Below, piece after piece: positions 34,841 to 48,739 of a stretch of 64,000 nt of DNA. The stretch comes from Gammaproteobacteria bacterium. Lineage in GTDB: Bacteria > Pseudomonadota > Gammaproteobacteria > Nitrosococcales > Methylophagaceae. The DNA lies in contig JAWUYH010000025.1 in assembly GCA_034110895.1 (NCBI GenBank), forward strand, positions 671 to 64,670, written 5' to 3'. The position numbers and the translations under genes were made by a program. Position 1 is the stretch's first letter. Every line of letters begins with the position of its first letter. The notes beneath the pieces were generated by a model. That model made no database searches. It had not been told where the DNA came from and worked only from the letters and a program-made list of their open reading frames with translations.

Positions 34841-34862
34841 AATTAAATATAGGACTGAGCCA

Positions 34863-36524
34863 ATGAAATCATCAAAAATCAACCAAGAAATTACAGTAGC
34901 ATATCAAATTACAGTGTCTGATCTAGCCGAGATAGTCGAGCAAGGGTTTAAGACAATATTCTGTCATCGTCCAGATGGCGAAGGCCCTGATCAACCAAAT
35001 TTTGAAGAAATAGAGAGTGCTGCTAGAAAATTAGGCTTGGAGCTTAAATATCTGCCTGTGACCATGGGTAAAATAAGCGATGATGATATACAACAATTTT
35101 CTAGCAGTTTTGATGCAGCCATTAAACCAATATTTTCCTATTGCAGATCAGGTATGCGTGCAATAACGTTGTGGAGTCTTAAAGAGGCCGATACGACTTC
35201 TTTACCAGAACTATTAAGTATTGGTAAAAATGCTGGGTATGATATGTCTGGATTAAGTTTAAGATTAGCTTCAGGTAAACAATCTCCGAGTAATACAAAA
35301 GATCACCAAATTGTTATTGTGGGTGGTGGTGCTGCTGGGATCTCAGTCGCTTCGAGTTTACTTTCACGAGATTCTAGCTTAGACATAGCCATTATAGACC
35401 CTGCTGAAACACATTATTATCAACCTGGATGGACCATGGTCGGTGGTGGTATTTTTGAAGCAGAGGAAACCGTCAGAACAATGGCATCCGTCATGCCTAA
35501 AAATGTAACTTGGATTAAAGCGGCTGTTGCAGCATTTGAACCTGAACAAAATATGGTGACATTAGAGGGTTACAGATTAGTAAAATATGAAAAACTGATT
35601 GTTTGTCCTGGTATTAAGCTCAATTGGAATGGTATTGAAGGTCTTATAGAAACACTGGGTCAAAATGGTGTTACTTCAAATTATCGGTATGATCTAGCTC
35701 CATACACATGGGAATTAGTGAGCTCAATGCGCAAAGGGAAGGCAATCTTCACCCAGCCACCGATGCCTATAAAATGTGCAGGAGCGCCACAAAAAGCAAT
35801 GTACTTGTCTGGAGACCATTGGTTCCGTACAGGCGATCTAAAAAATATAGATATTAGCTTCTTCACCAGCACTCCTGGCTTATTTGGTGTTAAAGATTAT
35901 GTGCCAGCATTGATGAAATATGTTGAAAAGTATGATGCAAGCTTAAATTTCGGACATACATTGACAAAAATTGACGGTAAGAAAAAGCTAGCCTGGTTTA
36001 CCAAAAAATTAGAAGATGGCACTGTAGATACCATTGAAACAGATTTCGATATGATCCATGTAGTACCACCTCAGCAAGCCCCTGATTTCATTAGAGCAAG
36101 TACCATTGTTGATGATGCAGGATGGGTTGATGTCAGTCAAGAAACCTTACAACACAAAAGATATCCAAATATCTATGGTTTAGGCGACGTAATTAATGCT
36201 CCTAATGCTAAGACCGCTGCTGCAGCCAGAAAACAAGCACCTGTTGTGGCTACAAATATCTTATTTGATTTGAAAAAGAGCTCGAACAAAGCCATTTATA
36301 ATGGCTATGGTTCTTGTCCATTAACAGTAGAACGTGGCAAGGTTATTTTGGCTGAGTTTGGCTATGGTGGTAAATTATTACCAAGCTTCCCTAAATGGTT
36401 TTTGAATGGTCAAGAACCAACAAAACTAGCTTGGGTACTGAAAGAAACAATCTTACCTCGTATGTATTGGAAAGGTATGCTTAAAGGACGTGAGTGGCTT
36501 GCTAATCCAGATGATAATGTCTAA
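34863..36524 (+). CDS. sqr: Fusion of DUF442 (TIGR01244-type, sulfurtransferase/phosphatase-like) domain with sulfide:quinone oxidoreductase
   Basis: N-terminal FKTIFCHRPDGEGPDQP. FAD fold IVIVGGGAAGISVAS. SQR-type PIKCAGAPQKAMY and GLGDV motifs. Confidence 0.8.
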   Translation: MKSSKINQEITVAYQITVSDLAEIVEQGFKTIFCHRPDGEGPDQPNFEEIESAARKLGLELKYLPVTMGKISDDDIQQFSSSFDAAIKPIFSYCRSGMRAITLWSLKEADTTSLPELLSIGKNAGYDMSGLSLRLASGKQSPSNTKDHQIVIVGGGAAGISVASSLLSRDSSLDIAIIDPAETHYYQPGWTMVGGGIFEAEETVRTMASVMPKNVTWIKAAVAAFEPEQNMVTLEGYRLVKYEKLIVCPGIKLNWNGIEGLIETLGQNGVTSNYRYDLAPYTWELVSSMRKGKAIFTQPPMPIKCAGAPQKAMYLSGDHWFRTGDLKNIDISFFTSTPGLFGVKDYVPALMKYVEKYDASLNFGHTLTKIDGKKKLAWFTKKLEDGTVDTIETDFDMIHVVPPQQAPDFIRASTIVDDAGWVDVSQETLQHKRYPNIYGLGDVINAPNAKTAAAARKQAPVVATNILFDLKKSSNKAIYNGYGSCPLTVERGKVILAEFGYGGKLLPSFPKWFLNGQEPTKLAWVLKETILPRMYWKGMLKGREWLANPDDNV

Positions 36525-36588
36525 CGCAATAACGATCTAAAGAACGTTATACAGACAATAAAATAAATGAGAAGGTAATAGACGGTAA

Positions 36589-38343
36589 ATGAGTAAGCCT
36601 GGCAATATGTTAACGAAGTACCTGCCAATATTGGTTTGGGCAAAGAAATACAATAAAGGGGATGCTACAAATGATTTAATGGCAGCTGTAATAGTGACAT
36701 TAATGTTAGTACCCCAAGCCTTAGCTTATGCTGTTTTATCTGGTTTACCTCCACAAGTAGGGCTTTACGCTAGTATGTTGCCATTAATTGCCTATGCAAT
36801 TTTTGGCACTAGTAGCACACTAGCGGTTGGTCCAGTGGCGGTTGCTTCTTTAATGACAGCTGCAGCCATTCAACCCTTTTCAGCAATTGATATCAACCTA
36901 GGTATACAGGCGGCCGTGATAATAGCCTGTATTTCTGGTTTTATACTGGTACTGTCAGGTTTACTTAGATTAGGTTTCTTAGCAAACTTTTTATCTCATC
37001 CTGTCATTACGGGCTTTATTTCAGCTGCTAGTATTGTTATTGCTACTAGTCAATTATCGACACTACTAGGTTATTCAGTGAGAGCGGAAACACTTATTGA
37101 ATTGATTAGTAGTATTTATGAACATATTCATAAAACCGATATTGTGACCTTGGTTTTGTCAATATTCACCTTATTATTTCTTGTTTTTAACAAAAAATAC
37201 GCATTAACGTTTTGGACCAACATTGGCATGTCAACATTTTGGGCTCAAACCGTGGCCCGATCAGCGCCGGCTTTACTTGTTTTGTTGGGTACTCTGGCAA
37301 TGAAGGCTGATATTACTTGGTTAGCTACTGTCCGAACAGTAGGTGATATTTCGGGTGGATTACCAAGTTTTTCAATGCCTAATACTGATTTGAGTCTTTG
37401 GCAGGCACTTTGGATCCCAGCTCTATTGATCACCATTATTGGTTATGTTGAATCTATTTCCGTTGCACAAAGTCTCGCAATGAAACGTAAGGAAAGAATA
37501 GATCCTGATCAAGAGCTTATCGCACTAGGGATGTCCAACCTAGCAGCAGGCTTCACTGCTGGTCTTCCTGTATCGGGTGGTGTCTCCAGATCGGTTGTTA
37601 ATATGGATGCCGGTGCAGTCACTCCCGCTGCTGGCTTAATAACGGCATTTGGAATGATGATAGCCAGTGTCTTTATTGCTAACTGGTTAGGTGATTTACC
37701 ACGCTTTATATTGGCAGCAATAATCATTGTAGCGGTAATGGGTTTATTTGATGTCGGAGTATTTAAGCGTACCTGGAAATATAGTTATCATGACTTTATG
37801 GCCTTGGTCATCACCTTCAGTCTGACTTTATTGGTTAATGTGCAATCAGGTATTACCGCCGGTGTATTATTGTCGATTGGTCTTCATTTATACAAAAGCA
37901 GTCACCCTCATACGGCTATAGTAGGGCATGTATCAGGTACAGAACATTTTCGTAATGTTGAAAGACATGACGTTAATGTTTGTCCAAAAGTAGTTACTCT
38001 CCGTGTCGATGAGAGTCTTTATTTTGCTAACGCACGGTTTCTCGAACAACGCATACTTGAAATTCTGGCTGAGAAAAAATCTACAAAACATTTAATTTTA
38101 ATGTGTTCTGCGATTAATAATATTGATGGCAGTGCATTAGAAATTTTAGAAACTATCAATGAACAACTTAAGTATTTAGAAATAGGATTTCATCTGTCCG
38201 AAGTTAAAGGACCGGTTATGGATAATCTAAACAAAAGTCATTTCATTGATGATTTAAATGGTCAGGTGTATCTTTCTCAGTTTAAGGCTTACGAAGATTT
38301 ATCTTGCTTCGATACAGGCTCTAAACCCACTAACAAATCATAG
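36589..38343 (+). CDS. SulP-family anion (sulfate) permease with C-terminal STAS domain
   Basis: Multi-TM SulP core (LVPQALAYAVLSGLPPQVGLYAS) and a STAS-like tail (LRVDESLYFANA...IDGSALE). Confidence 0.88.
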   Translation: MSKPGNMLTKYLPILVWAKKYNKGDATNDLMAAVIVTLMLVPQALAYAVLSGLPPQVGLYASMLPLIAYAIFGTSSTLAVGPVAVASLMTAAAIQPFSAIDINLGIQAAVIIACISGFILVLSGLLRLGFLANFLSHPVITGFISAASIVIATSQLSTLLGYSVRAETLIELISSIYEHIHKTDIVTLVLSIFTLLFLVFNKKYALTFWTNIGMSTFWAQTVARSAPALLVLLGTLAMKADITWLATVRTVGDISGGLPSFSMPNTDLSLWQALWIPALLITIIGYVESISVAQSLAMKRKERIDPDQELIALGMSNLAAGFTAGLPVSGGVSRSVVNMDAGAVTPAAGLITAFGMMIASVFIANWLGDLPRFILAAIIIVAVMGLFDVGVFKRTWKYSYHDFMALVITFSLTLLVNVQSGITAGVLLSIGLHLYKSSHPHTAIVGHVSGTEHFRNVERHDVNVCPKVVTLRVDESLYFANARFLEQRILEILAEKKSTKHLILMCSAINNIDGSALEILETINEQLKYLEIGFHLSEVKGPVMDNLNKSHFIDDLNGQVYLSQFKAYEDLSCFDTGSKPTNKS

Positions 38344-39224: not shown

Positions 39225-40040
39225 TTAAAAAATAGTATCAATCATTTCATGTAATAACAGTTTGGTATCTTCATCATCTGTTATTGCATCAGCCATAGCA
39301 CACCTACATGCCATCTCTGGTTTAAAACCATTTTTAATGAGTTTAGCAGTATGCACAATTAAGCGTGTACTGGCACCTTCTTCTAAGCCGTTACCTACTA
39401 GGTTTCTTGTCATATGGGCTAATTTAACTAAATGTGCACATTGCTGCATATCTAAGCCTGTTTCCTCGTGAACTATTTTTGTTTCAAGTTCTTCGGTCGG
39501 ATAACTAAAATCTATAGCAATAAAACGTTGTCGCGTGCTGGGTTTAAGATCCTTAACTGCACTTTGATAACCTGGATTGTAGGAAATGGTCAGACAAAAG
39601 TCATCTGAAGCTTTGACAAGTTGACCTAATTTTTCAAGTGGAAGTACTCGTCTATAATCACACAAGGGGTGAATAACAACAGTGGTGTCTTTACGTGCCT
39701 CTACGATTTCATCTAAATAACAGATGCAGCCCTCTCTAACGGCGGTGGTTAAAGGGCCATCTACCCAAACCGTACTATCATTTTTAATCAAATAGCGACC
39801 GACTAAATCAGATGTAGTTAAATCATCATGACATGAAACCGTAATTAATGGCCTTTTATGATACCAACTCATATATTCCATAAATCGTGTTTTACCGCAA
39901 CCTGTTGGTCCTTTAAGTAAAACGGGTATTTTCTCAGATAAGGCCGTGTTAAATATCTCAACTTCGTTAGCGGTAGGTAAATAATAAGGCTCTTCATTAA
40001 TCATATATTCTGAGTTATTTACAATAGTATTAGTAGTCAT
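39225..40040 (-). CDS. CbbQ/NorQ/NirQ-family (MoxR-class) AAA+ ATPase
   Basis: LLKGPTGCGKTRFMEYM, DLVGRY, VWVDGPLTTAVREGCICYLDEIVEARKDTTVVIHPL, ISYNPGYQS...KPSTRQRF. Near-canonical CbbQ/NorQ signature blocks. Confidence 0.88.
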   Translation of the reverse strand: MTTNTIVNNSEYMINEEPYYLPTANEVEIFNTALSEKIPVLLKGPTGCGKTRFMEYMSWYHKRPLITVSCHDDLTTSDLVGRYLIKNDSTVWVDGPLTTAVREGCICYLDEIVEARKDTTVVIHPLCDYRRVLPLEKLGQLVKASDDFCLTISYNPGYQSAVKDLKPSTRQRFIAIDFSYPTEELETKIVHEETGLDMQQCAHLVKLAHMTRNLVGNGLEEGASTRLIVHTAKLIKNGFKPEMACRCAMADAITDDEDTKLLLHEMIDTIF

Positions 40041-40045
40041 AGTAT

Positions 40046-42130
40046 TTATGTCGTTAATTGTTTATAAATGGTAGAAATTTGAATAGGTAACATTGCGATA
40101 TTGGAAATTAATCGGAAATGTTTCTTTCCAAGCATATAAGGTAAATAGTCCATAGCCTCCTGATCAAAGGTTAATACAAAAGGATTAATCTGTTGCGCTT
40201 TTGCTTCATTAAAAGCACGGCGAGTATCTTCAACACCATAATGGCCCCTATAACTATCAACGTCATCAGGTTTACCATCTGTCAGTACAAATAAAATTTT
40301 AGTTTTAGCATCAGTCTGTCTTAAGGTTTTACTCAAATGTCTGATAGCAGCGCCCATTCGTGTATATTGCTGTGCTTCAAGAGATAAAATACGCTGTTTA
40401 ATATGATCATTATAGTTTTCATCAAACTTTTTTATAGGATAAATGTGGCACTGTTCGCGGCCTGAACCAGAAAACGCATAAATAGCATACTGATCATTTA
40501 GCTTAGCTAATGTGCGAGATAATAACCAGGTTGATTGCTTGATGATTTTATTTTTCCAGCCGGCGGTTGAGCCACTAATATCAACCGCAAACATAATGGC
40601 AACACTGCGACTATTTTTATTGTTTCTAATATAAAGGTTTTGAAAGTCATCAGCATGTTTTGTTTTATTTGATTTAGCACTAACCCATGCATCAATATCT
40701 ATGTCATCACCGTCACTTTGATAGCGAATAAGTTTTTGATCGTTAATCACTAGATCTAAAGCTTTCTTAATACGATATTCAAAAAACTTCAATTCAGGAT
40801 CATCAATGGTTTGTATTTGCTCATTTTGTAGTTCGATAGGAATTTCTCGAATTCGGCACCAGTCAGTTCGATATTGATTGATCGATGTATCCCATTCCGG
40901 GTATAGATAAGTGTTTTGTTTCTGTTCGTCTCTTAATTTTTCTTGTTTTTGTTGGTGATTTTCAACTTTACCAGCAAGATCTTGCCAAATATCAACTTGT
41001 GATTGACTGGCACTGCTTGGGGCATCTGAGTTGGCATTATGTTTAAAGTAGACACGTTGAGAATCTTGACTATTCTCTTCCTCCTGAGCTATTTCCTCAT
41101 CAGGATTATAAATATTCATATGCACTGGCTGCTTGGTAGTTATTTCTGTTGAATCGTAGATTAATTTTTCAGGTGAAAAATTACTTTGATAAGGTAGACT
41201 AGTAAAATTATTTTGTTTATTAGCCAGTTTCTTCACTAAGGCAATACTATCAAACACGGTAGTTTCTGCGCTGTTAGTCAAGGTTAGTTCAGGATAATCA
41301 TCAATACCTAGCTGCTGCTGTAATTTAATAATATTTTTCCAAATACCTGGAAACTTATGTTTAAGATGTTGATCTATTCTTAAGGTTTCTACTGTTGAAA
41401 ATAAATCAAGGAAGTCATCCCCATATTCAACAACGCCTTGTTTTATTTCCTCTACAGCCAGGTTTGTTTGGCATTCGATTTGACCTAGTTGATGAAAAGC
41501 AATGATTTTATAGAGCAAATAGTTATCCTGATAATTGTCAAATAAGCTAATTGATTCAGGTAGAAAAATACTTTTCCCATTGGTGTATGGTTTATCTTCG
41601 ATGGTGTGATCTAAACGAACTAATGTGTATTCCTGTTCGGTAATAGAAAAGATAAGTTTTTCTAAAATATCAGCAACATTGACGAATTGTGTGGTGGATG
41701 TATTTATTTGAGATTTAAAATCAGTGTAGTTATCGATAAGACTGTTAGCTTTTACTGTCTCCTTTGCACTTACAGCTTCAATAAGTTGTTCTATCCATTG
41801 TTGGTGTTGTGACGTATCCATTATAGTTAATGCAGGTTCGTAGACAAGCATCATAGAATAAGCATGCTCCATAGAGATATCTGCAAGTTGTTCGAGTCGA
41901 TTTAAAAATTCAGATTGTGAGAGATGGCTTAGTTTAGCCAGTTGAGTTACTGGAGCCATGATCGATTCTTTACTTTTAATATCAGTCAAAATCAATTCAA
42001 TACGAATTTTCAACTCTGTTGTGCTCATACCTCCACAAGAACCCGTTTGTTTAGATTCTAATAAGGCGATACGGCCCTTGTTATTTATTGGTATTGCTTT
42101 CTTTTTAAACCAATCACTAATGAACTTCAT
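40046..42130 (-). CDS. CbbO/NorD-like protein with C-terminal von Willebrand factor A domain
   Basis: 694 aa. C-terminal VWA with MIDAS-like VDISGST...S.G...TDG (LTDGKPDD). Lies 5 nt upstream of the CbbQ/NorQ-like gene, the usual pairing. Confidence 0.75.
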   Translation of the reverse strand: MKFISDWFKKKAIPINNKGRIALLESKQTGSCGGMSTTELKIRIELILTDIKSKESIMAPVTQLAKLSHLSQSEFLNRLEQLADISMEHAYSMMLVYEPALTIMDTSQHQQWIEQLIEAVSAKETVKANSLIDNYTDFKSQINTSTTQFVNVADILEKLIFSITEQEYTLVRLDHTIEDKPYTNGKSIFLPESISLFDNYQDNYLLYKIIAFHQLGQIECQTNLAVEEIKQGVVEYGDDFLDLFSTVETLRIDQHLKHKFPGIWKNIIKLQQQLGIDDYPELTLTNSAETTVFDSIALVKKLANKQNNFTSLPYQSNFSPEKLIYDSTEITTKQPVHMNIYNPDEEIAQEEENSQDSQRVYFKHNANSDAPSSASQSQVDIWQDLAGKVENHQQKQEKLRDEQKQNTYLYPEWDTSINQYRTDWCRIREIPIELQNEQIQTIDDPELKFFEYRIKKALDLVINDQKLIRYQSDGDDIDIDAWVSAKSNKTKHADDFQNLYIRNNKNSRSVAIMFAVDISGSTAGWKNKIIKQSTWLLSRTLAKLNDQYAIYAFSGSGREQCHIYPIKKFDENYNDHIKQRILSLEAQQYTRMGAAIRHLSKTLRQTDAKTKILFVLTDGKPDDVDSYRGHYGVEDTRRAFNEAKAQQINPFVLTFDQEAMDYLPYMLGKKHFRLISNIAMLPIQISTIYKQLTT

Positions 42131-42245
42131 TAGATTTATCCACTGAACTATAAATGAAAATTAAGCATGATGGATAGCTGCTGAGTTGTTAATACGTAGT
42201 TTTACTTAATGTGTGAGCTATCGTTAAGGTATATTGTGATAGTTA

Positions 42246-42294
42246 TGTGACAGTTAACGTATAAATTGGCTAATGTTAACGTATAATGTGACAG
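42246..42294. promoter_or_regulatory. Permuted direct repeats TGTGACAG and GTTAACGTATAA in the divergent intergenic region
   Basis: GTTAACGTATAA at 42253..42264 and 42275..42286 (22-bp spacing). TGTGACAG at 42246..42253 and 42287..42294. Variant TGTGATAG at 42235..42242. Confidence 0.4.
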
Positions 42295-42493
42295 ATTATG
42301 GTAGAGATTAAATTTAGCTCGACAATAGATGGCATTTACTAAACATTTGAGCAATTAGTAAACTATATTTATGCTAAGTTGGCTATGTCATAACATACTG
42401 AAAATGAACTTAAATCGATAAAAAAGTGGTCAGTAAGGATATATACGTATACCCAAGAGACCATTAGAAACATACAGTATATGCCAGTTGAGG

Positions 42494-42518
42494 GATTTTC
42501 TATCTAGTCTAGAAAATC
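42494..42518. promoter_or_regulatory. Perfect 9-bp inverted repeat GATTTTCTA-N7-TAGAAAATC about 70 bp upstream of the AlkB-like start
   Basis: Read directly at 42494..42502 / 42510..42518. A 10-bp palindrome TATACGTATA lies at 42442..42451. Operator-like geometry. Confidence 0.35.
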
Positions 42519-42585
42519 GACGGTCATTAGACCGATAAACTTCAATGTGAATTTATAATTATAATTGTCCGGGAGACTAAATGTC

Positions 42586-43770
42586 ATGAAAAAGATTTTG
42601 ATTAATTTAAGGTATTTCTTGGCACCAATACTCATACTAGTAAGTATGGTTGGTGTATTAGTAGGGGGCCCATTTGTATGGGTCGGTGTCATATTATTTG
42701 GGGTAGGTATAGTTCTTGATACCGCAAGTATGAATTTCCACACTAAAGGCGCTGGATTTGATAAAAATGGTGATACCAACGGTATGGCTGGAATGCAAAA
42801 CGCTGTAATGTACATCATGTTACCTGTGTTTGCTCTTTTACAGCTTGCACTAGCATGGCGCGTTTTTGAATATGTTAACGGTGTGCCAATGGCATCTGAA
42901 ATGTTCATGGGTATACCTGTTCAAATTGGTATTACAGGTTCTCAGCTAGTCGGTGCAACATTGTCGACTGGTATCTTTGCAGGAATCGGTATTATCTATG
43001 GTCATGAATTAGCTCATACAAAAGGTTTTAGTTTTGTAATTTCTAGATTGATGATGGGTTTAAGTGGTGCAGCTCATTTTTGTTACGCTCACGTATACAA
43101 TCATCATTTAGAGTTAGCTCATCAAGATGATCCAGCAACATCACCACGCGGTCGTTCTATCTATAGACATTTCTGGTTATCTCACATGGGACAATCAAAA
43201 TTCCTCTATAAAATGGAATCAGTACGTTTAGCTAAGTTAGGAAAATCTTTTATCTCTCTAGATAATAGATGGATCCGTGGTTATTTCATGAGCCTTCCAA
43301 CTATGATTCTGTTTGCATGGGTAGGTGGTCCAATCGGTATCGCATGCATGTTCTTAGTTTGGACAGTATCAAACTTTGAATTAGAAGCGCTTAACTACAT
43401 GGAACATTACGGTCTTATTCGTGAAAAAGGTCAACCTATTGATTATCGCCACTCTTGGGATAATGACAATATGTTTACAAGCTGGTTCTTTATCGAAATT
43501 GGTCGTCAAGGTGATCACCATGACCGTGGAGAAACACACTTTTGGGAATTGGATGAAGTAGGCTCACCTAATCCAGGTTGGGGATATTTCACTGAATTCA
43601 CAATCGCTTTGATTCCACCATTATGGCACTCTGTTTACAAGAAAAAATTAGCAACATGGGACAGAGACTTTGCGTCAGAAGGTGAATTAGCTATAGCAAG
43701 AAAAGTGAATGCACAAGCTAACTATGAAGTGGAAAATGAAAACTCTCCAGCATCATACGCAAAAATTTAG
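42586..43770 (+). CDS. AlkB/XylM-family integral-membrane di-iron hydroxylase (fatty-acid-desaturase superfamily)
   Basis: Boxes GHELAHT, HVYNHHLELAHQDDPATSPRG, NYMEHYGL, HSWDN, GRQGDHH align by eye with P. putida AlkB. Multiple TM segments. RBS gggaga precedes ATG 42586. Confidence 0.85.
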   Translation: MKKILINLRYFLAPILILVSMVGVLVGGPFVWVGVILFGVGIVLDTASMNFHTKGAGFDKNGDTNGMAGMQNAVMYIMLPVFALLQLALAWRVFEYVNGVPMASEMFMGIPVQIGITGSQLVGATLSTGIFAGIGIIYGHELAHTKGFSFVISRLMMGLSGAAHFCYAHVYNHHLELAHQDDPATSPRGRSIYRHFWLSHMGQSKFLYKMESVRLAKLGKSFISLDNRWIRGYFMSLPTMILFAWVGGPIGIACMFLVWTVSNFELEALNYMEHYGLIREKGQPIDYRHSWDNDNMFTSWFFIEIGRQGDHHDRGETHFWELDEVGSPNPGWGYFTEFTIALIPPLWHSVYKKKLATWDRDFASEGELAIARKVNAQANYEVENENSPASYAKI

Positions 43771-43777: not shown

Positions 43778-43808
43778 GCAGCTGGGATGTTGTCCCAGCT
43801 GCTTTTTT
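43778..43808 (+). terminator. Rho-independent terminator-like hairpin immediately after the AlkB-like gene
   Basis: Perfect 10-bp GC-rich stem gcagctggga/tcccagctgc, 5-nt loop, then T6. Confidence 0.75.
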
Positions 43809-43826: not shown

Positions 43827-44189
43827 ATGAGTGAAGAAAGTTTATACGATAGATTAGGTGGTCACGATGCATTGGTGGCTTTAGCAAGAACTACGTTTAA
43901 TAATCATTGTAAAAATGATTTGATCAAAAATAGATATGTGAATAGTGATCCAGAAGAAGTTGTTAGAAAAGTTGGCGAGTTTATGTGTGCAGGTTTTGGT
44001 GGTAAAGAAGCCTACACGGGTGATGATATGCTAACGGCTCATACAGGAATGAACATTTCAGAAGAAGAGTTTAACGCCGTTGTTGACGATGTTATGAAAG
44101 CACTTGAAACACATAATGCAGGCCAAAGAGAGAAAGATGAAATCTTAGCGGCTTTATGGTCAATGCGTCCTGAAATTGTTCACGTTTAA
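43827..44189 (+). CDS. Truncated haemoglobin (2-on-2 globin), cytoplasmic
   Basis: 120 aa. N-terminal LYDRLGG and ...MLTAHTGMNISEEEFNAVVDDVMKAL are typical trHb helices (proximal His region). Confidence 0.8.
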   Translation: MSEESLYDRLGGHDALVALARTTFNNHCKNDLIKNRYVNSDPEEVVRKVGEFMCAGFGGKEAYTGDDMLTAHTGMNISEEEFNAVVDDVMKALETHNAGQREKDEILAALWSMRPEIVHV

Positions 44190-44214: not shown

Positions 44215-44400
44215 ATGAAACTTAATTGGGATAGTGAAGTATGTCAACATGCAGGCGTTTGCGTAACAAAGTTTGCTCATGTTTATTCAATAGAAGATGG
44301 TTCATTTTTAATTGATACTTCAACAGCGACTGATGAAGAATTAAAGATGAGTATAGCTCAATGCCCATCGGGTGCAATCTCAAGTTCAGCCGAAGACTAA
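44215..44400 (+). CDS. YjdI-like 'divergent 4Fe-4S mono-cluster' small iron-sulfur protein
   Basis: 61 aa. VCQHAGVCV ... AQCPSGAIS parallels E. coli YjdI ICQHSGNCV ... CPSGAL. Confidence 0.55.
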   Translation: MKLNWDSEVCQHAGVCVTKFAHVYSIEDGSFLIDTSTATDEELKMSIAQCPSGAISSSAED

Positions 44401-44453: not shown

Positions 44454-45140
44454 ATGGCAATAGGTGATCATCTAGCAGATGTAAAAATACTTTATGGTGT
44501 AGCAGGTTGTGCACAAACAAGCAAATGTCTATTTGTAGCAGCTGAAAAAGGCATCGATATTGATGGCCGAGCACTTGATGTGAATTCAGCCACAGACATG
44601 GCACAAATCAAAGCGGGTTCACCGTTTGATATTTTACCAGTACTAAAAGATGTAGATTTCTATGTATATGGTACCGAAGCAATATTGTCATATCTTGATG
44701 ACAAGGGTTTTGGTAATTCGCTAGTACCTAGAAATGGAGTTGCAAGAGCTCAACAATACCAATGGATTGGGGTTGCTCAGCATGTGTTTGCTCCAGAAGT
44801 AAAAAAAATCAGTGATGGGAATTCAGATAGTGTCGCACTAGAAAATGTGAAAGGCATTTTAGCTAATCTTGAAAATCAGCTTACGAGTAAACCACAACGT
44901 GGAGATTATATCGTTGGTGATTTAACCTTAGCAGATATTCACTGGGCTCCTTATATCCATAGCTGTTGCTTGTATGGCAATGAAGCACTTATTGATGCTT
45001 TACCTGCTGTTAAAAAGTGGTGGTCACATATGAAAGTAAGAAAGAGTACGAGTAAAGAAAATTATGTTGCTTACACGGTATTACCATCACTCGATGAAAT
45101 TCGTAACAACATAGTACGTTCAGTCAGTATCAATGCATAA
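44454..45140 (+). CDS. GST-fold protein, paralogue C
   Basis: KILYGVAGCAQTSKCLFVAAEKGIDI, LPVLKD...YGTEAILSYLDDKGFGNSLVPR, LADIHW, C-terminal VLPSLDEIRNN. Confidence 0.6.
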   Translation: MAIGDHLADVKILYGVAGCAQTSKCLFVAAEKGIDIDGRALDVNSATDMAQIKAGSPFDILPVLKDVDFYVYGTEAILSYLDDKGFGNSLVPRNGVARAQQYQWIGVAQHVFAPEVKKISDGNSDSVALENVKGILANLENQLTSKPQRGDYIVGDLTLADIHWAPYIHSCCLYGNEALIDALPAVKKWWSHMKVRKSTSKENYVAYTVLPSLDEIRNNIVRSVSINA

Positions 45141-45178: not shown

Positions 45179-46246
45179 ATGTTCGGATTTTTCAAAAATA
45201 AAAAGCTAGACTACGAAGTAAAAATTAATTCAGGCAATACCCTGGTAGTCAAGGCCGGTGACAACTTGTTAAAAGCAGCCTTACAGGCTGATATTGCATG
45301 GCCTCACGACTGTCGAGTTGGCAGTTGTGGGACCTGTAAATGCAAACTTGTTGACGGCAAAATAAAAGCACTCGCTGATTTCAGTTATGTTTTAGAGGGT
45401 GAAGAGTTACGAGATGGTTATATTTTAGCGTGTCAAACTCAATTAAGATCAGATGTTTCAGTCGAAGTTGCATTGCTTTCTGACAGCGAAAAACAAAGCC
45501 ATTGGGAATCAGATGCTGTAATTACAACTATCAATGATCTTACACATGATATTAAAGAGGTCATAGTTGAGATTGATGTTAATGAGCTGCCTAAAGGTGT
45601 CAGTCTATTTAAAGCCGGCCAGTATGCCGATCTGAAAATACCTGAGTTAAGCGAAGGCAGAAATTATTCATTTGCTTCAGCACCACATGAAAATCAAAAC
45701 CAATTTAAGTTTTATATTAGACACGTACCCGGTGGTGAGTTTACTGACTGGTTATTCGACACCGATCGAACAGGTCAAGCTCTTAAGATGTCAGGGCCTT
45801 TTGGTGTGTTTGGTCTAAAAGAAGATAAGCTACCAATGACATGTATTGCAGGCGGTAGCGGCATGAGTGCAGTCATCAGTGTCTTACAACAGGCACTGTC
45901 GTCTGGAGTAAAACGCAATGTACGTTTCTTATTTGGAGCAAGAACTGAAGCAGATCTTTATTGTGGAGATTTGATTGATCAATTAGCTGCAGATTGGAAA
46001 AAGAAAGGCTTAGGGACATTTGAATATTTACCATGCCTATCACAAGAACCAGAAGCTAGTGCATGGCAGGGCCGAAGAGGTTCTTGCATAGATTATATTG
46101 TTGAAGAGGGTGTCAAACTTTCTGGACAAGCTTATTTATGTGGACCACCTGGAATGATTGATGCCGGAATAAGTATCTTCGAAAAAAACGGCATAACAAA
46201 AGATGCAATATTCTTTGATAAATTTCTTGATAAGAGTAACCAATAA
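45179..46246 (+). CDS. XylA-type oxidoreductase: N-terminal plant-type 2Fe-2S ferredoxin fused to an FAD/NAD(P)H ferredoxin-reductase module
   Basis: CRVGSCGTCKC...ACQT cluster ligands. RNYSFAS flavin motif. GGSGMS and CGPPGM nucleotide-binding motifs. Confidence 0.85.
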   Translation: MFGFFKNKKLDYEVKINSGNTLVVKAGDNLLKAALQADIAWPHDCRVGSCGTCKCKLVDGKIKALADFSYVLEGEELRDGYILACQTQLRSDVSVEVALLSDSEKQSHWESDAVITTINDLTHDIKEVIVEIDVNELPKGVSLFKAGQYADLKIPELSEGRNYSFASAPHENQNQFKFYIRHVPGGEFTDWLFDTDRTGQALKMSGPFGVFGLKEDKLPMTCIAGGSGMSAVISVLQQALSSGVKRNVRFLFGARTEADLYCGDLIDQLAADWKKKGLGTFEYLPCLSQEPEASAWQGRRGSCIDYIVEEGVKLSGQAYLCGPPGMIDAGISIFEKNGITKDAIFFDKFLDKSNQ

Positions 46247-46271
46247 ACTAATAGTTTGGGAGGAAAATACA

Positions 46272-46481
46272 ATGGCTTCATTTAAAGCATTGATAGTAAT
46301 GGCTATATGGACTGGAATCGTAGGGTATGGCTTGTATAGCGTAGGGGCACATCAAAGTGAAAACTATACTCAACCACTTTGGGCAATCGCAATTGGTACT
46401 GGTTTATTAGTAACGCATATTGTAAACATGGCGATTTATTTCAAAGTGGCAGGCGAAAGACCATTTGAGTGGATTAAATAA
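46272..46481 (+). CDS. Small two-TM membrane protein (69 aa)
   Basis: Strong RBS gggagga upstream of ATG 46272. Two hydrophobic helices (ALIVMAIWTGIVGYGLY; LWAIAIGTGLLVTHIV). No homology recognised. Confidence 0.45.
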   Translation: MASFKALIVMAIWTGIVGYGLYSVGAHQSENYTQPLWAIAIGTGLLVTHIVNMAIYFKVAGERPFEWIK

Positions 46482-46539: not shown

Positions 46540-47796
46540 ATGAATAATAAAAAATATTTAGCAATAGTGATTGCAGCATTAGCTGCCTCATCAACTGCAG
46601 TTGTAGCCGGTACAAACGGTACCGATTTAAATAATAACTTGTTGCCAGCAACGGGTGGTATGGGTGGAGCGAGTGTTGCTCGCACCGTAGAGCCAGCTGC
46701 AGCCGTATTTGGTAACCCTGCCAACTTAACTCAATATAATGAAGGCACTAGTTTTACCTTTGGTGCCACTTATTTTGACCATAATGTCGAAGGTAATGCA
46801 TCAGCTGCTTTTGGTGGTGCAGATATTAAGTCACAAACAAATCCTTATTTAGTACCCACCATTGCTATTACCCAAGCCTTTAGTGAAAACCTTGTAGCAG
46901 GTTTAGGCCTATCTGTAACTGCTGGTCTAGGTGCAGATTTTAGAGGAGAAGGTATTGGCGATCCTCTTAGTGAACTTATTGTGTTTAATGCAAATGTTGG
47001 TGCGGGTTACAAAGTAACAGAAAACTTATCATTGGGCGCTATGGCCACTATTGGTAATGGTTATTTTCAAGCCAGCACAAATGAAAATTCTGGCTCGACT
47101 CATAACTTTGGTTTTAGAGCAACAGTAGGCGGAAAATATGATATGGGCGCTACCAGTTTTGGTGCCTATTACAGAAGTGAACTGAAAATCCGCTACGATA
47201 ATTATATTTCTGATGGAGCCGGTAATTTCTGGGATGATCATGTAGCTCAACCAGCAGAAATAGCGTTTGGTGTTGCTAATAATAGTCTGATGGGCGGAGC
47301 CTTACAAGTTAATGCCGATGTTATTCATAAAGATTATTCTGGTGCTGCTTTCTACAAAGATTTCTATCGTGATCAAACCGTATTTAATTTAGGTGCTCAG
47401 TTAACGACTGGAAAGGCACAATGGCGCGTAGGTTATAGTCATGCTAGAGATCCAATTAAACGTAATCTTGATCCAGGTAATATTGGTATCGGTGGCAACG
47501 ATCCTATCCAAACCCCTTCAGCATTCGTACCATTATTTGGTCCACAGCTTCCTGTTACTGGTCCAGTCGTAGAGTATTTCCAAGCTACTAATGCAGCTGC
47601 TGTTTGGGAAAATACGGTTACCGCAGGTATGGGTTATCAACTAATGCCTAATATTAAAGTAGATATACATGCTGCATTTTCACTAGACAATGAAGAAGAT
47701 ATTGGTACTGCCAATAGTGCTCTCGGCGATAATGTTTGGACAATAGAAGCCTCAGCATGGCAAGCAGGCCTTGGTCTTACATGGTCTTTTAAATAA
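46540..47796 (+). CDS. FadL/TodX/XylN-type outer-membrane hydrophobic-compound channel
   Basis: Signal peptide. N-terminal hatch-like GGMGGASVARTVEPAAAVFGNPANLT. Beta-strand-rich with a terminal ...GLGLTWSF aromatic residue. Confidence 0.7.
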   Translation: MNNKKYLAIVIAALAASSTAVVAGTNGTDLNNNLLPATGGMGGASVARTVEPAAAVFGNPANLTQYNEGTSFTFGATYFDHNVEGNASAAFGGADIKSQTNPYLVPTIAITQAFSENLVAGLGLSVTAGLGADFRGEGIGDPLSELIVFNANVGAGYKVTENLSLGAMATIGNGYFQASTNENSGSTHNFGFRATVGGKYDMGATSFGAYYRSELKIRYDNYISDGAGNFWDDHVAQPAEIAFGVANNSLMGGALQVNADVIHKDYSGAAFYKDFYRDQTVFNLGAQLTTGKAQWRVGYSHARDPIKRNLDPGNIGIGGNDPIQTPSAFVPLFGPQLPVTGPVVEYFQATNAAAVWENTVTAGMGYQLMPNIKVDIHAAFSLDNEEDIGTANSALGDNVWTIEASAWQAGLGLTWSFK

Positions 47797-47817: not shown

Positions 47818-48309
47818 ATGAATACATTAATTAAAAGCATCGCAATCGCGGGAATAATGAGTACTTCATTTGCCGCGATGAATGTTGTTGCAGTAGAAGT
47901 AGCCGCTGAAATGCCAGCAGTAGCAGCACCATCACTTTATGAACGTATTGGTGGGGAAGTTGTATCAAGAGCCATTGTTGAAGATATTTGGACTAACCAT
48001 AGTAACAATCCTATTGTTAAAGGTCGCTTTCTTTATAGTGATGCTGAGCAAGTGAAAGAGCGCGTATTTGAAATATTTGCTGTAGCAACTGGTGGCGATG
48101 TTAAATATAACGGTATGGATTTAGCTGAAAGACATAGCAATATGAATATCAGTGATATGGAATTTAATGCTGCTGTAGATGATATTATGGCTGCATTGAC
48201 TAAAAACAATATTGCTCAAAAAGAAAAAGACGAAGTATTAGTCATTCTATGGTCAGTTAAACCTGCCATAGTTAACACTTTTATGACAACTGAAGCTTTA
48301 ACTAAATAA
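47818..48309 (+). CDS. Truncated haemoglobin with an N-terminal export signal
   Basis: Leader MNTLIKSIAIAGIMSTSFAAMNVVA followed by LYERIGG...AERHSNMNISDMEFNAAVDDIMAAL. Paralogous to 43827..44189. Confidence 0.75.
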   Translation: MNTLIKSIAIAGIMSTSFAAMNVVAVEVAAEMPAVAAPSLYERIGGEVVSRAIVEDIWTNHSNNPIVKGRFLYSDAEQVKERVFEIFAVATGGDVKYNGMDLAERHSNMNISDMEFNAAVDDIMAALTKNNIAQKEKDEVLVILWSVKPAIVNTFMTTEALTK

Positions 48310-48441: not shown

Positions 48442-48705
48442 ATGCCAAAATATATTATTGAAAGAGAAATACCGGGTGCAGGTAACTGGACGCAAGAGGA
48501 TATCGCCGGAATTACAGAAAAATCATGTTCAATCCTAAAAGACATGGGTCCAGAAATAGAATGGCTTCATAGTTATGTGACAGATGATAAAGTTTATTGT
48601 CTATACAATGCTGTCAATGAGCAAGCCGTTATGGATCATGCAACGGAAGGTGGTTTCCCCGCTAATAAAATCACTGAAGTAAAAAATATGCTTAACCCTC
48701 AATAA
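48442..48705 (+). CDS. DUF4242-like small protein
   Basis: MPKYIIEREIPGAGNWTQED...VYCLY.A...AV..HA..GGFPA resembles the DUF4242 family. Start ATG 48442 preferred to 48382. Confidence 0.55.
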   Translation: MPKYIIEREIPGAGNWTQEDIAGITEKSCSILKDMGPEIEWLHSYVTDDKVYCLYNAVNEQAVMDHATEGGFPANKITEVKNMLNPQ

Positions 48706-48739
48706 CGGTTTAAATTTAGCCCAGATTAGAATAATTATA

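What the first reader, a model, noticed from the sequence alone, without database searches (positions are those of the whole stretch)
39225..43770. NorQ/NorD (CbbQ/CbbO)-type AAA+/VWA pair coupled to a membrane di-iron hydroxylase instead of NOR or RuBisCO
Seen in sequence: the 271-aa ATPase carries near-canonical CbbQ/NorQ blocks. The 694-aa partner ends in a VWA/MIDAS domain. The pair shares a 455-bp repeat-bearing divergent intergenic region with the AlkB-like gene. No norCB, RuBisCO or gas-vesicle genes occur in this 64-kb window. Established knowledge: NorQ/NorD is required for non-haem iron (FeB) insertion into cNOR, and CbbQ/CbbO remodels RuBisCO. Inference: this pair may mature or reactivate the His-ligated di-iron site of the AlkB-like enzyme, or of another client in the locus. 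That client class has not, to my knowledge, been described for these chaperones.
Basis: partly seen in the sequence, partly recalled or inferred. Interest (0 to 1): 0.78.

Follow-up and report, generated by a model that had tools for sequence, protein, structure and literature searches.

The report
Iron-chaperone-like pair beside membrane monooxygenase
A two-protein ATP-driven machine, of the kind known to load iron into nitric-oxide reductase or to unblock RuBisCO, is here consistently placed next to a membrane di-iron monooxygenase operon that is switched on by dimethylsulfide in a related bacterium, which suggests a new client for these machines and a candidate for the unidentified first enzyme of marine DMS breakdown.

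Summary
Window 39225-40040(-) encodes a CbbQ/NorQ-type MoxR AAA+ ATPase. Window 40046-42130(-) encodes a NorD-like VWA/MIDAS protein. Window 42586-43770(+) encodes an AlkB-fold membrane di-iron enzyme. No NOR, RuBisCO or gas-vesicle genes were found among the window ORFs scanned.

This VWA subfamily (44% identity or more) lies head-to-head with the AlkB-like operon in 14 of 15 evaluable species genomes and in six metagenome contigs. A 14-nt box (GGATWTWTACGTAT) occurs once in every such intergenic region and in none of 144 other loci.

The reverse does not hold. Only about 14-18% of AlkB-like loci carry the pair, so it is a lineage-specific accessory and not a general requirement of the enzyme family.

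The operon lies in a sox/mtoX/persulfide-dioxygenase island. Published data show that its Methylophaga thiooxydans orthologues are induced 29-136-fold on DMS, and that organism's primary DMS enzyme is unknown.

Best reading: a NorQD-like remodeller that loads or rescues the di-iron site of an organosulfur-linked AlkB-like monooxygenase. The linkage is well supported. The client and mechanism are inferred.

Verdict: a new variant of a known kind, experimentally testable. Interest 0.72.

The parts
39225..40040 (-). CbbQ/NorQ-type MoxR AAA+ ATPase, 271 aa. It has Walker A GPTGCGKT, Walker B CYLDE and a CbbQ_C lid domain. The P-loop cysteine pair C48/C70 has the same 22-residue spacing as the redox-sensitive C46/C68 of P. 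denitrificans NorQ.
   Evidence: Pfam AAA_5 plus CbbQ_C. About equal scores to solved CbbQ and NorQ. Motifs read from the translation. The cysteine pair is described in PMC13036017.
40046..42130 (-). NorD/CbbO-like adaptor protein, 694 aa. It has a helical N-domain (about residues 35-325), a disordered linker (326-387), a beta-hairpin segment before the VWA domain (about 405-430) that is likely the pore-inserting finger, a VWA domain with an intact MIDAS site, and a conserved C-terminal IYKQLTT tail.
   Evidence: Pfam VWA. Subfamily alignment with invariant MIDAS residues. NorD match restricted to residues 401-693, by sequence and by profile. AlphaFold architecture. Best fold matches are NorD VWA chains 9qh6_G and 9qhd_G, TMt 0.74-0.75.
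42131..42585 (.). Divergent promoter region of 455 bp. It is about 140 bp longer than in related loci because of an insertion that carries the 12-nt repeat pair at 42253-42264 and 42275-42286.
   Evidence: Sequence, repeats, alignment of 14 intergenic regions.
42437..42450 (+). Conserved 14-nt box GGATATATACGTAT (pattern GGATWTWTACGTAT), 136 bp upstream of the AlkB-like ATG (box end to start codon). It is a presumed operator shared by the two divergent transcription units.
   Evidence: One copy lies in the VWA/AlkB-like intergenic region of 23 pair-bearing loci and none in 144 other loci. There is one copy in the window, against 0.01 expected by chance.
42190..42211 (+). Second, less strictly conserved box (consensus ATACGTAnTTnTACT) on the VWA side. 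It forms an inverted repeat with the box region at 42431-42450.
   Evidence: Inverted repeat I1. Conserved columns in the intergenic alignment.
42586..43770 (+). AlkB-fold integral-membrane di-iron monooxygenase, 394 aa. It carries motifs HELAH, AHVYNHH and NYMEHYGL. The third His box reads GRQGDHH, so the first His of the canonical LQRHSDHH is Gln.
   Evidence: Pfam. AlkB 8sbb/8f6t by sequence and by fold. The Gln substitution is present in 120 of 120 clade members.
43778..43802 (+). GC-rich hairpin followed by a T-run, immediately after the AlkB-like stop codon. It could be a partial terminator or attenuator ahead of the downstream genes.
   Evidence: Terminator-like scan. Function not tested.
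43827..44189 (+). Group I truncated haemoglobin, 120 aa, cytoplasmic.
   Evidence: Pfam Bac_globin. NCBI names of the orthologue.
44215..44400 (+). Small mono-cluster ferredoxin, 61 aa, with the cysteine pattern CxxHxxC...CP.
   Evidence: ORF. The orthologues carry Pfam Fer4_19.
44454..45140 (+). Glutathione S-transferase family protein, 228 aa.
   Evidence: Pfam GST_N_3 and GST_C_3.
45179..46246 (+). Reductase with 2Fe-2S, FAD and NAD domains, of the BenC/MmoC type. It is the presumed electron donor to the monooxygenase.
   Evidence: Pfam Fer2, FAD_binding_6 and NAD_binding_1. NCBIfam partial matches to BenC and MmoC.
46269..46481 (+). Conserved small membrane protein of about 70 aa with no family assignment.
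   Evidence: Conserved in the operon of related loci. No Pfam hit.
46540..47796 (+). FadL/TodX-family outer-membrane channel for hydrophobic compounds.
   Evidence: The orthologues carry Pfam Toluene_X. NCBI names them OmpP1/FadL family.
47818..48309 (+). Second group I truncated haemoglobin, 163 aa, with an N-terminal hydrophobic segment that looks like a signal peptide (judged from the sequence; not tested with a predictor).
   Evidence: Pfam Bac_globin. The orthologue, locus tag MDMS009_199, is induced on DMS.
48442..51092 (+). Operon tail: an SCO4226-like small protein (48442-48705), an NMO-family flavoenzyme (48740-49807) and a conserved 396-aa protein of unknown family (49902-51092).
   Evidence: Pfam. 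Synteny. The protein sequence of the SCO4226-like orthologue appears in Table S5 of PMC6548844, 9.3-fold up on DMS.
22198..26125 (+). Context: methanethiol oxidase MtoX (SBP56 family), a SCO1/MauG fusion and a peroxiredoxin-like protein.
   Evidence: Pfam. MtoX is 73% identical to M. thiooxydans MtoX.
34136..38343 (+). Context: a metallo-beta-lactamase-fold protein of the persulfide-dioxygenase type, a BLH-domain flavoprotein of the SQR type, and a SulP transporter.
   Evidence: Pfam.

Best explanation
The two genes encode a genuine MoxR-class AAA+ motor (CbbQ/NorQ type) and its VWA/MIDAS adaptor (NorD/CbbO type). Together they form a distinct subfamily that is dedicated to an AlkB-like membrane di-iron monooxygenase operon.

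Proposed mechanism, by analogy with NorQD:
1. The ATPase forms a hexamer.
2. The beta-finger ahead of the VWA domain inserts into the ATPase pore, and the conserved C-terminal tail contacts the ring.
3. The subfamily-specific N-domain and the MIDAS site dock on the cytoplasmic face of the AlkB-like enzyme.
4. ATP-driven twisting transiently opens the His-rich di-iron pocket. Iron can then be loaded or re-loaded, or an inhibitory ligand can be released.

The pair and the operon share a divergent promoter with a conserved operator, so they are probably co-regulated.

The operon lies in a methanethiol-oxidase, persulfide-dioxygenase and Sox island, and its orthologues are strongly induced by DMS in M. 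thiooxydans. The hydroxylase therefore probably acts on DMS or a related volatile. Thiol and sulfide products would be expected to attack a di-iron site, which would explain a dedicated rescue factor in these lineages.

Shown here: family identity, domain architecture, conserved linkage, the shared box, and DMS induction of the operon's orthologues.
Inferred: the identity of the client, the iron-insertion or reactivation chemistry, the substrate, and co-regulation.
For: Identity of the pair:
- The MIDAS residues and the IYKQL tail are invariant.

Linkage seen from the pair's side:
- In a scan of 185,579 species genomes, 17 loci carry a VWA protein at 44-72% identity.
- In 14 of these the AlkB-like gene is divergently adjacent. 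Two more end too close to the VWA gene to tell.
- One locus (L016) is rearranged but still has the operon's OMP and 396-aa genes 7-8 kb away.
- Six metagenome contigs show the same layout.
- The synteny holds while VWA identity falls to 44%.

Shared operator:
- GGATWTWTACGTAT occurs once in each of 23 pair-bearing loci and in the window. It is absent from 144 other loci, including AlkB-like operons that lack the pair.

Distant homologues:
- Full-length VWA homologues at 29-34% identity lie a few kb from AlkB-like operons in two further lineages, L003 and L129.

No alternative client nearby:
- No RuBisCO motif was found in any fetched locus. No NOR or RuBisCO family was found in the L001/L002 gene lists or among the window ORFs scanned.
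- The N-domain shows no detectable sequence similarity to NorD's.

Analogy:
- NorQD inserts a non-haem iron into a His/Glu site of a membrane protein from the cytoplasmic side (PMC9976466, PMC13036017).

Physiology:
- The M. thiooxydans orthologues rise sharply on DMS relative to methanol: AlkB-like 1359 vs 10, reductase 618 vs 12, secreted globin 601 vs 21, and the SCO4226-like protein 9.3-fold.
- mtoX lies in the window and within 10 kb in L006, L018, L009, L019 and L085.
- Among six Methylophaga species compared in PMC6548844, only the two with mto also appear in my scan as carriers of the pair.
Against: - Most AlkB-like homologues lack the pair. Of 51 loci chosen by the AlkB-like gene that have at least 3 kb upstream, 7 have the close pair and 2 have a distant VWA homologue.
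- Some loci have a full operon with reductase and no pair (L085, L116, L120, L156, L167).
- No residue in the AlkB-like protein separates pair-linked from pair-free copies.
- Nothing here shows a physical interaction or any effect on iron content.
- Expression of the pair on DMS is not reported in the tables that were available.
- The closest outgroup VWA proteins (26-31% identity) sit in housekeeping contexts that give no clue to a client. The ancestral client is therefore unknown.
- Only 64 kb of this genome was visible, so a NOR elsewhere in the genome cannot be excluded.
Confidence: 0.58

Rival explanations
1. The pair serves the operon, but its client is another component and not the AlkB-like protein. 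Candidates are the 2Fe-2S/FAD reductase, the small ferredoxin, one of the truncated haemoglobins, or a membrane complex that includes the 70-aa protein.
For: - The linkage is to the operon as a whole.
- The gene set common to pair-bearing loci and to loci with a distant VWA homologue contains the AlkB-like gene, ferredoxin, GST, reductase and the small membrane protein.
- Pair-free AlkB-like genes often also lack the reductase. The pair therefore tracks the full operon rather than the hydroxylase alone.
Against: - The pair is always placed head-to-head with the AlkB-like gene, not with the other genes.
- The known clients of the closest relatives are a His-ligated non-haem iron site in a membrane protein (NorB) and RuBisCO. 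None is an Fe-S or haem protein.
- Full operons with reductase and globin exist without the pair.
Confidence: 0.2
2. The pair is an ordinary NorQ/NorD, as public annotation says, or an ordinary CbbQ/CbbO. It serves a nitric-oxide reductase or RuBisCO encoded elsewhere in the genome, and its position beside the AlkB-like gene has no functional meaning.
For: - Sources name the orthologues 'nitric oxide reductase activation protein NorD/NorQ'.
- The ATPase gives full-length matches of 305-327 bits to solved NorQ and CbbQ.
- Related VWA proteins in other bacteria are encoded away from any visible client.
- Only 64 kb of the genome was seen.
Against: - The divergent arrangement is conserved in about 20 distinct contigs while VWA identity falls to 44%.
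- A pair-specific operator box lies in the shared intergenic region.
- The N-domain does not match NorD's.
- The gene order is VWA then ATPase. From my own knowledge, norQ-norD and cbbQ-cbbO have the opposite order.
- M. thiooxydans assimilates carbon through the RuMP cycle (PMC6548844). From my own knowledge, Methylophaga does not use RuBisCO.
- No RuBisCO motif was found in any fetched locus.
Confidence: 0.07
3. The pair acts as a regulator or assembly checkpoint and not as a metal-site chaperone. It might control membrane insertion, oligomerisation or turnover of the hydroxylase complex, or couple it to the redox state of the cell through the P-loop cysteine pair.
For: - The redox-sensitive cysteine pair described for NorQ is conserved here: C48 and C70, compared with C46 and C68 in the paper.
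- MoxR/VWA systems such as RavA-ViaA modulate respiratory complexes rather than insert metals (abstract of PMC10585395).
- The enzyme family works without the pair in most lineages.
Against: - The closest characterised relative by sequence and fold of the VWA domain is NorD, whose function is metal insertion.
- No regulatory domain was detected.
Confidence: 0.12

Closest known systems
NorQ/NorD (cNOR FeB-insertion chaperone; PDB 9qh4-9qhg; PMC9976466, PMC13036017)
   Same: - The ATPase is the same CbbQ/NorQ subclass of MoxR proteins (AAA_5 plus CbbQ_C), with a 320-bit full-length match.
- The VWA protein shares the YPEWD segment before the VWA domain, an intact MIDAS site, the C-terminal IY(K/R)QL tail, and the layout of N-domain, disordered linker, finger and VWA.
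- The best fold match is NorD.
- The presumed client is likewise an integral membrane enzyme whose His-ligated non-haem iron faces the cytoplasm.
   Different: - No norCB genes are nearby.
- The N-domain of about 330 aa has no detectable sequence similarity to NorD's.
- The gene order is reversed (VWA then ATPase).
- The protein is longer (694 aa against about 640).
- The partner operon encodes an AlkB-like di-iron monooxygenase.
CbbQ/CbbO (RuBisCO activase; PDB 5c3c, 6l1q)
   Same: - The ATPase scores marginally best against CbbQ (327 and 324 bits).
- It is a two-gene motor-plus-VWA-adaptor system that reactivates an inhibited metalloenzyme rather than only assembling it. The 'rescue' reading proposed here follows that logic.
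   Different: - No RuBisCO is present in the window or in any related locus.
- The hosts include RuMP-cycle methylotrophs.
- The client would be a membrane protein.
- No CbbO sequence was available for direct comparison.
AlkB alkane 1-monooxygenase (PDB 8sbb, 8f6t) and XylM/XylA xylene monooxygenase
   Same: - It has the AlkB fold (TM 0.63-0.68), the His boxes HELxH and HxxxHH, and the NYxEHYGL motif.
- Its redox partner is a 2Fe-2S/FAD/NAD reductase. From my own knowledge this is the XylA type.
- A FadL/TodX outer-membrane channel is encoded in the operon, as in hydrocarbon-degradation operons.
   Different: - Identity to solved AlkB is only about 22-23% in the fold alignments.
- The first His of the third box is Gln throughout the clade, giving 8 His plus Gln instead of 9 His.
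- There is no rubredoxin or rubredoxin reductase.
- The operon carries two truncated haemoglobins and a GST.
- It lies in an organosulfur island and is DMS-induced.
- No canonical AlkB or XylM operon is known to me to carry a MoxR/VWA pair.
Other MoxR/VWA metal-centre systems (CoxD/CoxE for Mo-Cu CO dehydrogenase, MxaR/MxaL/MxaC for methanol dehydrogenase, CobS/CobT, BchI/BchD)
   Same: The general theme is the same: an AAA+ motor and a VWA/MIDAS partner assist cofactor insertion into a dedicated enzyme encoded nearby.
   Different: These belong to different AAA+ subfamilies (AAA_3 MoxR proper, or chelatases) and have different adaptors and soluble or periplasmic clients. None has been described for a membrane di-iron hydroxylase.
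DmoA DMS monooxygenase (Hyphomicrobium)
   Same: It catalyses the net reaction proposed in the novel reading: DMS + O2 + NADH gives methanethiol + formaldehyde, upstream of MtoX.
   Different: The protein is unrelated: a soluble flavin-dependent luciferase-like enzyme. dmoA is absent from all six Methylophaga genomes compared in PMC6548844.

Membership tests
CbbQ/NorQ subfamily of MoxR AAA+ ATPases | AAA_5 ATPase core followed by the CbbQ/NirQ/NorQ C-terminal domain | tested here: met
   Pfam AAA_5 2e-32 (residues 39-173) and CbbQ_C 1.7e-28 (residues 186-269).
CbbQ/NorQ subfamily of MoxR AAA+ ATPases | Full-length similarity to solved CbbQ and NorQ, with Walker A and Walker B motifs | tested here: met
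   5c3c 327 bits, 6l1q 324 bits, 9qhd 320 bits, 9qh4 305 bits. GPTGCGKT and CYLDE were read from the translation.
CbbQ/NorQ subfamily of MoxR AAA+ ATPases | Adjacent, translationally coupled VWA partner gene | tested here: met
   The gap in the window is 5 bp. L006 has a 4-bp overlap. The partner is present in all 17 subfamily loci.
NorD | C-terminal VWA domain with an intact MIDAS site (DxSxS...T...D) | tested here: met
   D517, S519, S521, T590 and D618 are invariant in 14 sequences. Pfam VWA.
NorD | Finger segment before the VWA domain, and a C-terminal tail that contacts the ATPase ring | tested here: inconclusive
   The YPEWD segment and the IY(K/R)QL tail align with NorD. The model shows a beta-hairpin at residues 407-429. 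The best fold matches are NorD VWA chains. Contact with the ATPase was not modelled.
NorD | NorD-type N-terminal domain (the presumed cNOR-specificity domain) | tested here: not met
   A profile of 14 subfamily members matches full-length NorD chains only over positions 402-693. Nothing matches positions 1-400 at E up to 1.
NorD | Genomic linkage to norCB | tested here: not met
   No NOR family was found among the window ORFs scanned with Pfam or in the gene lists of L001/L002. The neighbour is an AlkB-like operon instead.
NorD | Required for FeB insertion into cNOR | not testable with these tools
   This needs genetics and biochemistry.
CbbO | Genomic linkage to RuBisCO genes, or presence of RuBisCO in the host | tested here: not met
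   The RuBisCO active-site motif is absent from the 82 loci fetched at that point. No RuBisCO family was found among the window ORFs scanned with Pfam. Whole genomes could not be scanned.
CbbO | Sequence similarity to the CbbO N-domain | not tested
   No CbbO sequence was reachable. The PDB sequence set returned none, and the word search with the N-domain returned nothing.
AlkB (membrane alkane 1-monooxygenase) | FA_desaturase-superfamily membrane fold matching solved AlkB | tested here: met
   Pfam 5e-24. 8sbb 2e-29. The only significant fold matches are 8f6t and 8sbb, TM 0.63-0.68.
AlkB (membrane alkane 1-monooxygenase) | Nine conserved His ligands (HELxH, EHxxGHH, NYxEHYGL, LQRHSDHH) | tested here: not met
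   Eight of the nine are present. The first His of the last box is Gln (GRQGDHH) in 120 of 120 clade members.
AlkB (membrane alkane 1-monooxygenase) | Rubredoxin and rubredoxin-reductase electron chain | tested here: not met
   The operon encodes a Fer2-FAD-NAD reductase and a Fer4_19 ferredoxin instead.
AlkB (membrane alkane 1-monooxygenase) | Match to a curated equivalog model | tested here: not met
   No NCBIfam model matched at E up to 0.01.
AlkB (membrane alkane 1-monooxygenase) | Alkane hydroxylation activity | not testable with these tools
   The substrate is unknown. The available expression data point to DMS growth.

The most novel reading that the evidence does not exclude
The AlkB-like enzyme is the long-missing primary DMS-oxidising enzyme of Methylophaga-type marine bacteria. 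In this reading it is a membrane di-iron monooxygenase that hydroxylates a methyl group of DMS. The product falls apart into methanethiol and formaldehyde, which feed MtoX, persulfide dioxygenase/SQR and Sox, all encoded in the same island. The NorQD-like pair is then a dedicated 'activase' that keeps the di-iron site loaded and free of thiolate or sulfide. This would be a third client class for CbbQ/NorQ-type MoxR-VWA machines, and the first that repairs a membrane oxygenase.
Probability: 0.22. Interest if true: 0.88.

Novelty: new variant of a known kind. Interest (0 to 1): 0.72.

Why it matters
To my knowledge, CbbQ/NorQ-type motors with NorD/CbbO-type adaptors have two established clients: cNOR and RuBisCO.

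A conserved, co-regulated third pairing with an AlkB-fold di-iron monooxygenase would matter for three reasons.

1. It would show that the N-domain of the adaptor is a swappable client-recognition module. It would also give the field a second membrane client on which to test the new 'finger-in-pore twisting' model.
2. It bears on how membrane di-iron oxygenases obtain or keep their metals, about which I know of no established answer.
3. It points to a concrete candidate for the primary DMS-degrading enzyme in Methylophaga. That enzyme was left unidentified by the 2019 proteome and transcriptome study, which read the same gene as a lipid desaturase. DMS turnover is a major term in the marine sulfur cycle. 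The AlkB-like clade is widespread in marine metagenomes: 1263 hits, with more than 530 metagenome stretches.

Tried and rejected
- Word-indexed protein search with the VWA N-domain (residues 1-342), meant to find named CbbO or NorD relatives, returned nothing, not even the protein itself. It was uninformative.
- I examined the more distant VWA relatives (26-31% identity; Poriferihabitaceae, Arenicellales, Thiothrix and others) for a client. Their neighbours are housekeeping genes (ychF, prs, uvrD, dnaG, RNR, PFK). There is no RuBisCO, NOR or AlkB-like gene, and often no CbbQ gene within 10 kb. The ancestral client stays unknown.
- I searched for residues in the AlkB-like protein that separate pair-linked from pair-free copies and found none.
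It lies in a window-specific insertion of about 140 bp. The conserved element is a different 14-nt box.
- L016 (Cocleimonas) looked like an exception to the linkage. It is a rearrangement: the operon's OMP and 396-aa genes lie 7-8 kb away on the other strand, and the expected position of the AlkB-like gene is beyond the fetched flank.
- Table S6 locus tag 906 (OMP) does not map to the operon's OMP (EEF81180 gives tag 172), so I did not count it as operon induction.
- Literature searches that combined NorQ/NorD/MoxR/VWA with alkane monooxygenase, and mtoX/methanethiol/Methylophaga with AlkB, found no prior description. The library lacks most subscription journals.
- I rejected a gas-vesicle GvpN reading: the TIGR02640 match is 75 bits against a cut-off of 267, and no gvp genes were found.

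Full report
**1. What is in the sequence**

- Window 39225-40040(-) encodes a 271-aa ATPase with AAA_5 and CbbQ_C domains. It aligns end to end with solved CbbQ (5c3c, 327 bits; 6l1q, 324 bits) and NorQ (9qhd, 320 bits; 9qh4, 305 bits). The sequence does not tell CbbQ from NorQ.
- Window 40046-42130(-) encodes a 694-aa protein whose last 290 residues or so align with solved NorD (3e-40). Its MIDAS residues (D517, S519, S521, T590, D618) and C-terminal IYKQLTT tail are invariant in the subfamily.
- The gene order is VWA then ATPase, 5 bp apart. In M. thiooxydans the two genes overlap by 4 bp. This points to translational coupling.
- Across a 455-bp divergent spacer lies an AlkB-like gene. The likely start is ATG 42586 behind a GGGAG site. 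Its only solved relatives are AlkB, by sequence (8sbb 2e-29) and by fold (8f6t and 8sbb, TM 0.63-0.68; nothing else significant).

Pfam scans covered most window ORFs of 100 aa or more, including every ORF of 320 aa or more. They found no NOR, RuBisCO or gas-vesicle genes. Some smaller ORFs were not scanned.

**2. The operon beside the pair**

Downstream of the AlkB-like gene, on the same strand, are:

- a group I truncated haemoglobin;
- a 61-aa mono-cluster ferredoxin;
- a GST;
- a 2Fe-2S/FAD/NAD reductase;
- a membrane protein of about 70 aa;
- a FadL/TodX outer-membrane channel;
- a second truncated haemoglobin with a signal-peptide-like N-terminus;
- an SCO4226-like protein;
- an NMO-family flavoenzyme;
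- a conserved 396-aa protein of unknown family.

The same gene order is found in Methylophaga sulfidovorans.

**3. Architecture of the VWA protein**

An AlphaFold model built from 14 subfamily sequences has a mean pLDDT of 67. It shows a confident helical N-domain (about residues 35-325), a disordered linker (326-387), a beta-hairpin ahead of the VWA domain, and the VWA domain itself.

The best fold matches are the NorD VWA chains from the 2026 NorQD cryo-EM structures (TMt 0.74-0.75). This is the NorD layout described in PMC9976466 and PMC13036017: N-domain, linker, pore-inserting finger and MIDAS.

A profile of the subfamily matches full-length NorD only over positions 402-693. Nothing matches the N-domain. 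The NorQD authors assign client specificity to that domain, so a different N-domain is what a different client would predict.

**4. Co-occurrence, seen from the pair's side**

I scanned 185,579 species-representative genomes with the VWA alignment and received the 80 best loci. I then ran tblastn with all window proteins against them. Seventeen loci carry a VWA protein at 44-72% identity. They come from M. thiooxydans, M. sulfidovorans, uncultured Methylophaga, Piscirickettsiaceae, Cocleimonas and gammaproteobacterial MAGs.

- All 17 have the CbbQ-like gene directly after the VWA gene.
- Fourteen have the AlkB-like gene divergently upstream.
- Two end too close to the VWA gene to tell.
- One (L016) is rearranged. 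[quoted passage not shown]

Six metagenome contigs show the same head-to-head layout.

**5. Co-occurrence, seen from the AlkB-like side**

The AlkB-like clade is large and conserved: 1263 hits, with the top 120 at 67% identity or more.

| Loci chosen by the AlkB-like gene, with at least 3 kb upstream | Count |
|---|---|
| Total | 51 |
| With the close pair | 7 |
| With a distant full-length VWA homologue (29-34% identity) a few kb from the operon (L003, L129) | 2 |
| With no such gene in reach | 42 |

- In a neighbour-joining tree, pair-linked copies fill one Methylophaga-type clade almost completely. In a second clade they are scattered among pair-free copies.
- Pair-free copies there are often solo genes without the reductase. 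However, full operons without the pair also exist (L085, L116, L120, L156, L167).
- No alignment column separates pair-linked from pair-free proteins.

Conclusion: the pair is specific to this operon, but the enzyme family does not generally need it.

**6. A shared operator**

I aligned 14 VWA/AlkB-like intergenic regions. The alignment shows an almost invariant box, in the window GGATATATACGTAT at 42437-42450. A second, looser box (ATACGTAnTTnTACT, 42190-42211) lies in inverted orientation.

- The pattern GGATWTWTACGTAT occurs exactly once in each of 23 pair-bearing loci, always in that spacer.
- It occurs in none of the other 144 fetched loci, including AlkB-like operons without the pair.
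- In the window it occurs once, against 0.01 expected by chance.

It lies in a window-specific insertion and is not conserved elsewhere.

**7. Physiological context**

The window is an organosulfur and sulfur-oxidation island.

| Coordinates | Genes |
|---|---|
| 13.6-21 kb | soxCD, cytochrome c, soxYZ, soxA, rhodanese, soxB-like |
| 22198-26125 | methanethiol oxidase MtoX, SCO1/MauG, peroxiredoxin-like |
| 26-31 kb | hydrolase, acyl-CoA-dehydrogenase-like, PAS kinase, LuxR regulator |
| 34-38 kb | persulfide-dioxygenase-like, SQR-like, SulP |
| from 39225 | the pair and the AlkB-like operon |

MtoX also lies within 10 kb of the operon in L006, L018, L009 and L019, and directly next to the AlkB-like gene in L085.

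PMC6548844 compared M. thiooxydans DMS010 grown on DMS and on methanol.

| Locus tag | Product | Expression, DMS vs methanol |
|---|---|---|
| MDMS009_61 | NAD-binding oxidoreductase | 618 vs 12 |
| MDMS009_199 | glbN | 601 vs 21 |
| MDMS009_120 | cysB | 669 vs 11 |

These values are from Table S6. I mapped the tags to the L006 genes in two ways.

- The GenBank accessions of the L006 proteins (EEF81234, EEF81069, EEF81207, EEF81128) each equal the tag number plus 81008, and the product names agree.
- The protein sequence printed for MDMS009_82 in Table S5 (9.3-fold up on DMS) is identical to the SCO4226-like ORF of L006.

The authors read the 'desaturase' as a lipid-homeostasis enzyme. They stated that the primary DMS enzyme is still missing and that 'a hydrolase or monooxygenase' may exist. 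dmoA is absent from all six Methylophaga genomes they compared. mto is present only in M. thiooxydans and M. sulfidovorans, and those are the only named Methylophaga species in my scan that carry the pair and operon.

**8. A clade-wide change at the metal site**

Canonical AlkB has nine His ligands. In this clade the first His of the last box is Gln (GRQ[GA]DHH against LQRHSDHH) in 120 of 120 sequences. This holds with or without the pair, so it does not explain the pair. It does mark the clade as a distinct AlkB subfamily.

**9. Mechanism and alternatives**

The best-supported reading is a NorQD-like remodeller whose adaptor has acquired a new N-domain. That domain would direct it to the AlkB-like monooxygenase, where ATP-driven twisting would open the cytoplasmic His-rich pocket for loading or re-loading of iron, or for release of an inhibitory ligand.

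The DMS and methanethiol context suggests why only some lineages keep such a factor: thiols and sulfide are good iron ligands. This last step is inference.

Alternatives:

- another operon product is the client;
- the pair has a regulatory or assembly role;
- the pair is a conventional NorQD or CbbQO serving a distant client. The conserved synteny, the shared operator, the non-NorD N-domain and the RuMP-cycle hosts make this the least likely.

**10. Novelty**

Five literature searches found no description of a MoxR/VWA pair with an AlkB-type enzyme, and none of an AlkB-like enzyme in DMS metabolism. The searchable library is incomplete.

Public annotation calls these proteins NorD and NorQ. 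For the adaptor this is probably a mis-assignment of function.

I classify the finding as a new variant of a known kind of system.

Noticed in passing
window 13605-38343 and 42586-51092; L006 17345-20772: The finding lies inside a sulfur island made up of sox genes, methanethiol oxidase mtoX with SCO1/MauG, a persulfide-dioxygenase-like gene and an SQR-like gene. The operon's M. thiooxydans orthologues are induced 29-136-fold on DMS in published data. The AlkB-like enzyme is therefore a candidate for the unidentified primary DMS monooxygenase.
   Followed up: partly
window 42586-43770 (residue Q308 of the 394-aa protein): The first His of the third His box of AlkB is replaced by Gln (GRQGDHH) in all 120 closest homologues. 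The di-iron site therefore has 8 His plus Gln instead of 9 His.
   Followed up: partly
window 42437-42450 and 42190-42211: A 14-nt box, GGATWTWTACGTAT, is present once in every pair-bearing locus and in none of 144 others. A looser inverted partner box lies on the VWA side. The regulator is unknown. Candidates are the LuxR-type response regulator at 30761-31402 or a CysB-type regulator found in Methylophaga loci.
   Followed up: partly
window 43778-43802: A strong GC-rich hairpin with a T-run follows the AlkB-like stop codon directly, ahead of the globin gene. It could be a partial terminator that sets the ratio of hydroxylase to downstream products.
   Followed up: no
window 38258-38761 and 38790-39190: Two tandem paralogues of a small protein of about 135-147 aa with no family lie convergent with the ATPase gene. 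They are conserved in Methylophaga-type loci. In the window the second copy matches its homologues in two different reading frames, which suggests a frameshift or pseudogene.
   Followed up: partly
window 43827-44189 and 47818-48309: The same operon holds two group I truncated haemoglobins, one cytoplasmic and one with a signal-peptide-like N-terminus. They might supply O2 to the monooxygenase or scavenge sulfide or NO.
   Followed up: no
L016 477-2848: In Cocleimonas the pair is not next to the AlkB-like gene. [quoted passage not shown] This fits formaldehyde as a product of the pathway.
   Followed up: no
window 5665-9540: A second, unrelated MoxR system: an AAA_3 ATPase, a 323-aa protein without a Pfam hit, and a TgpA-type transglutaminase membrane protein.
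   Followed up: no
L021-L082 (e.g. L021 10025-12175, L057 8684-11815): A large set of full-length VWA homologues at 26-31% identity occurs in sponge-associated and sulfur-oxidising Gammaproteobacteria. They sit in housekeeping neighbourhoods, many with no CbbQ-like gene within 10 kb. Their client is unknown.
   Followed up: partly
window 27611-31402; L003, L085, L122, L129: An acyl-CoA-dehydrogenase-like gene, a PAS histidine kinase and a LuxR response regulator accompany the AlkB-like operon in several distant lineages. They may be its sensor and an auxiliary oxidoreductase.
   Followed up: no
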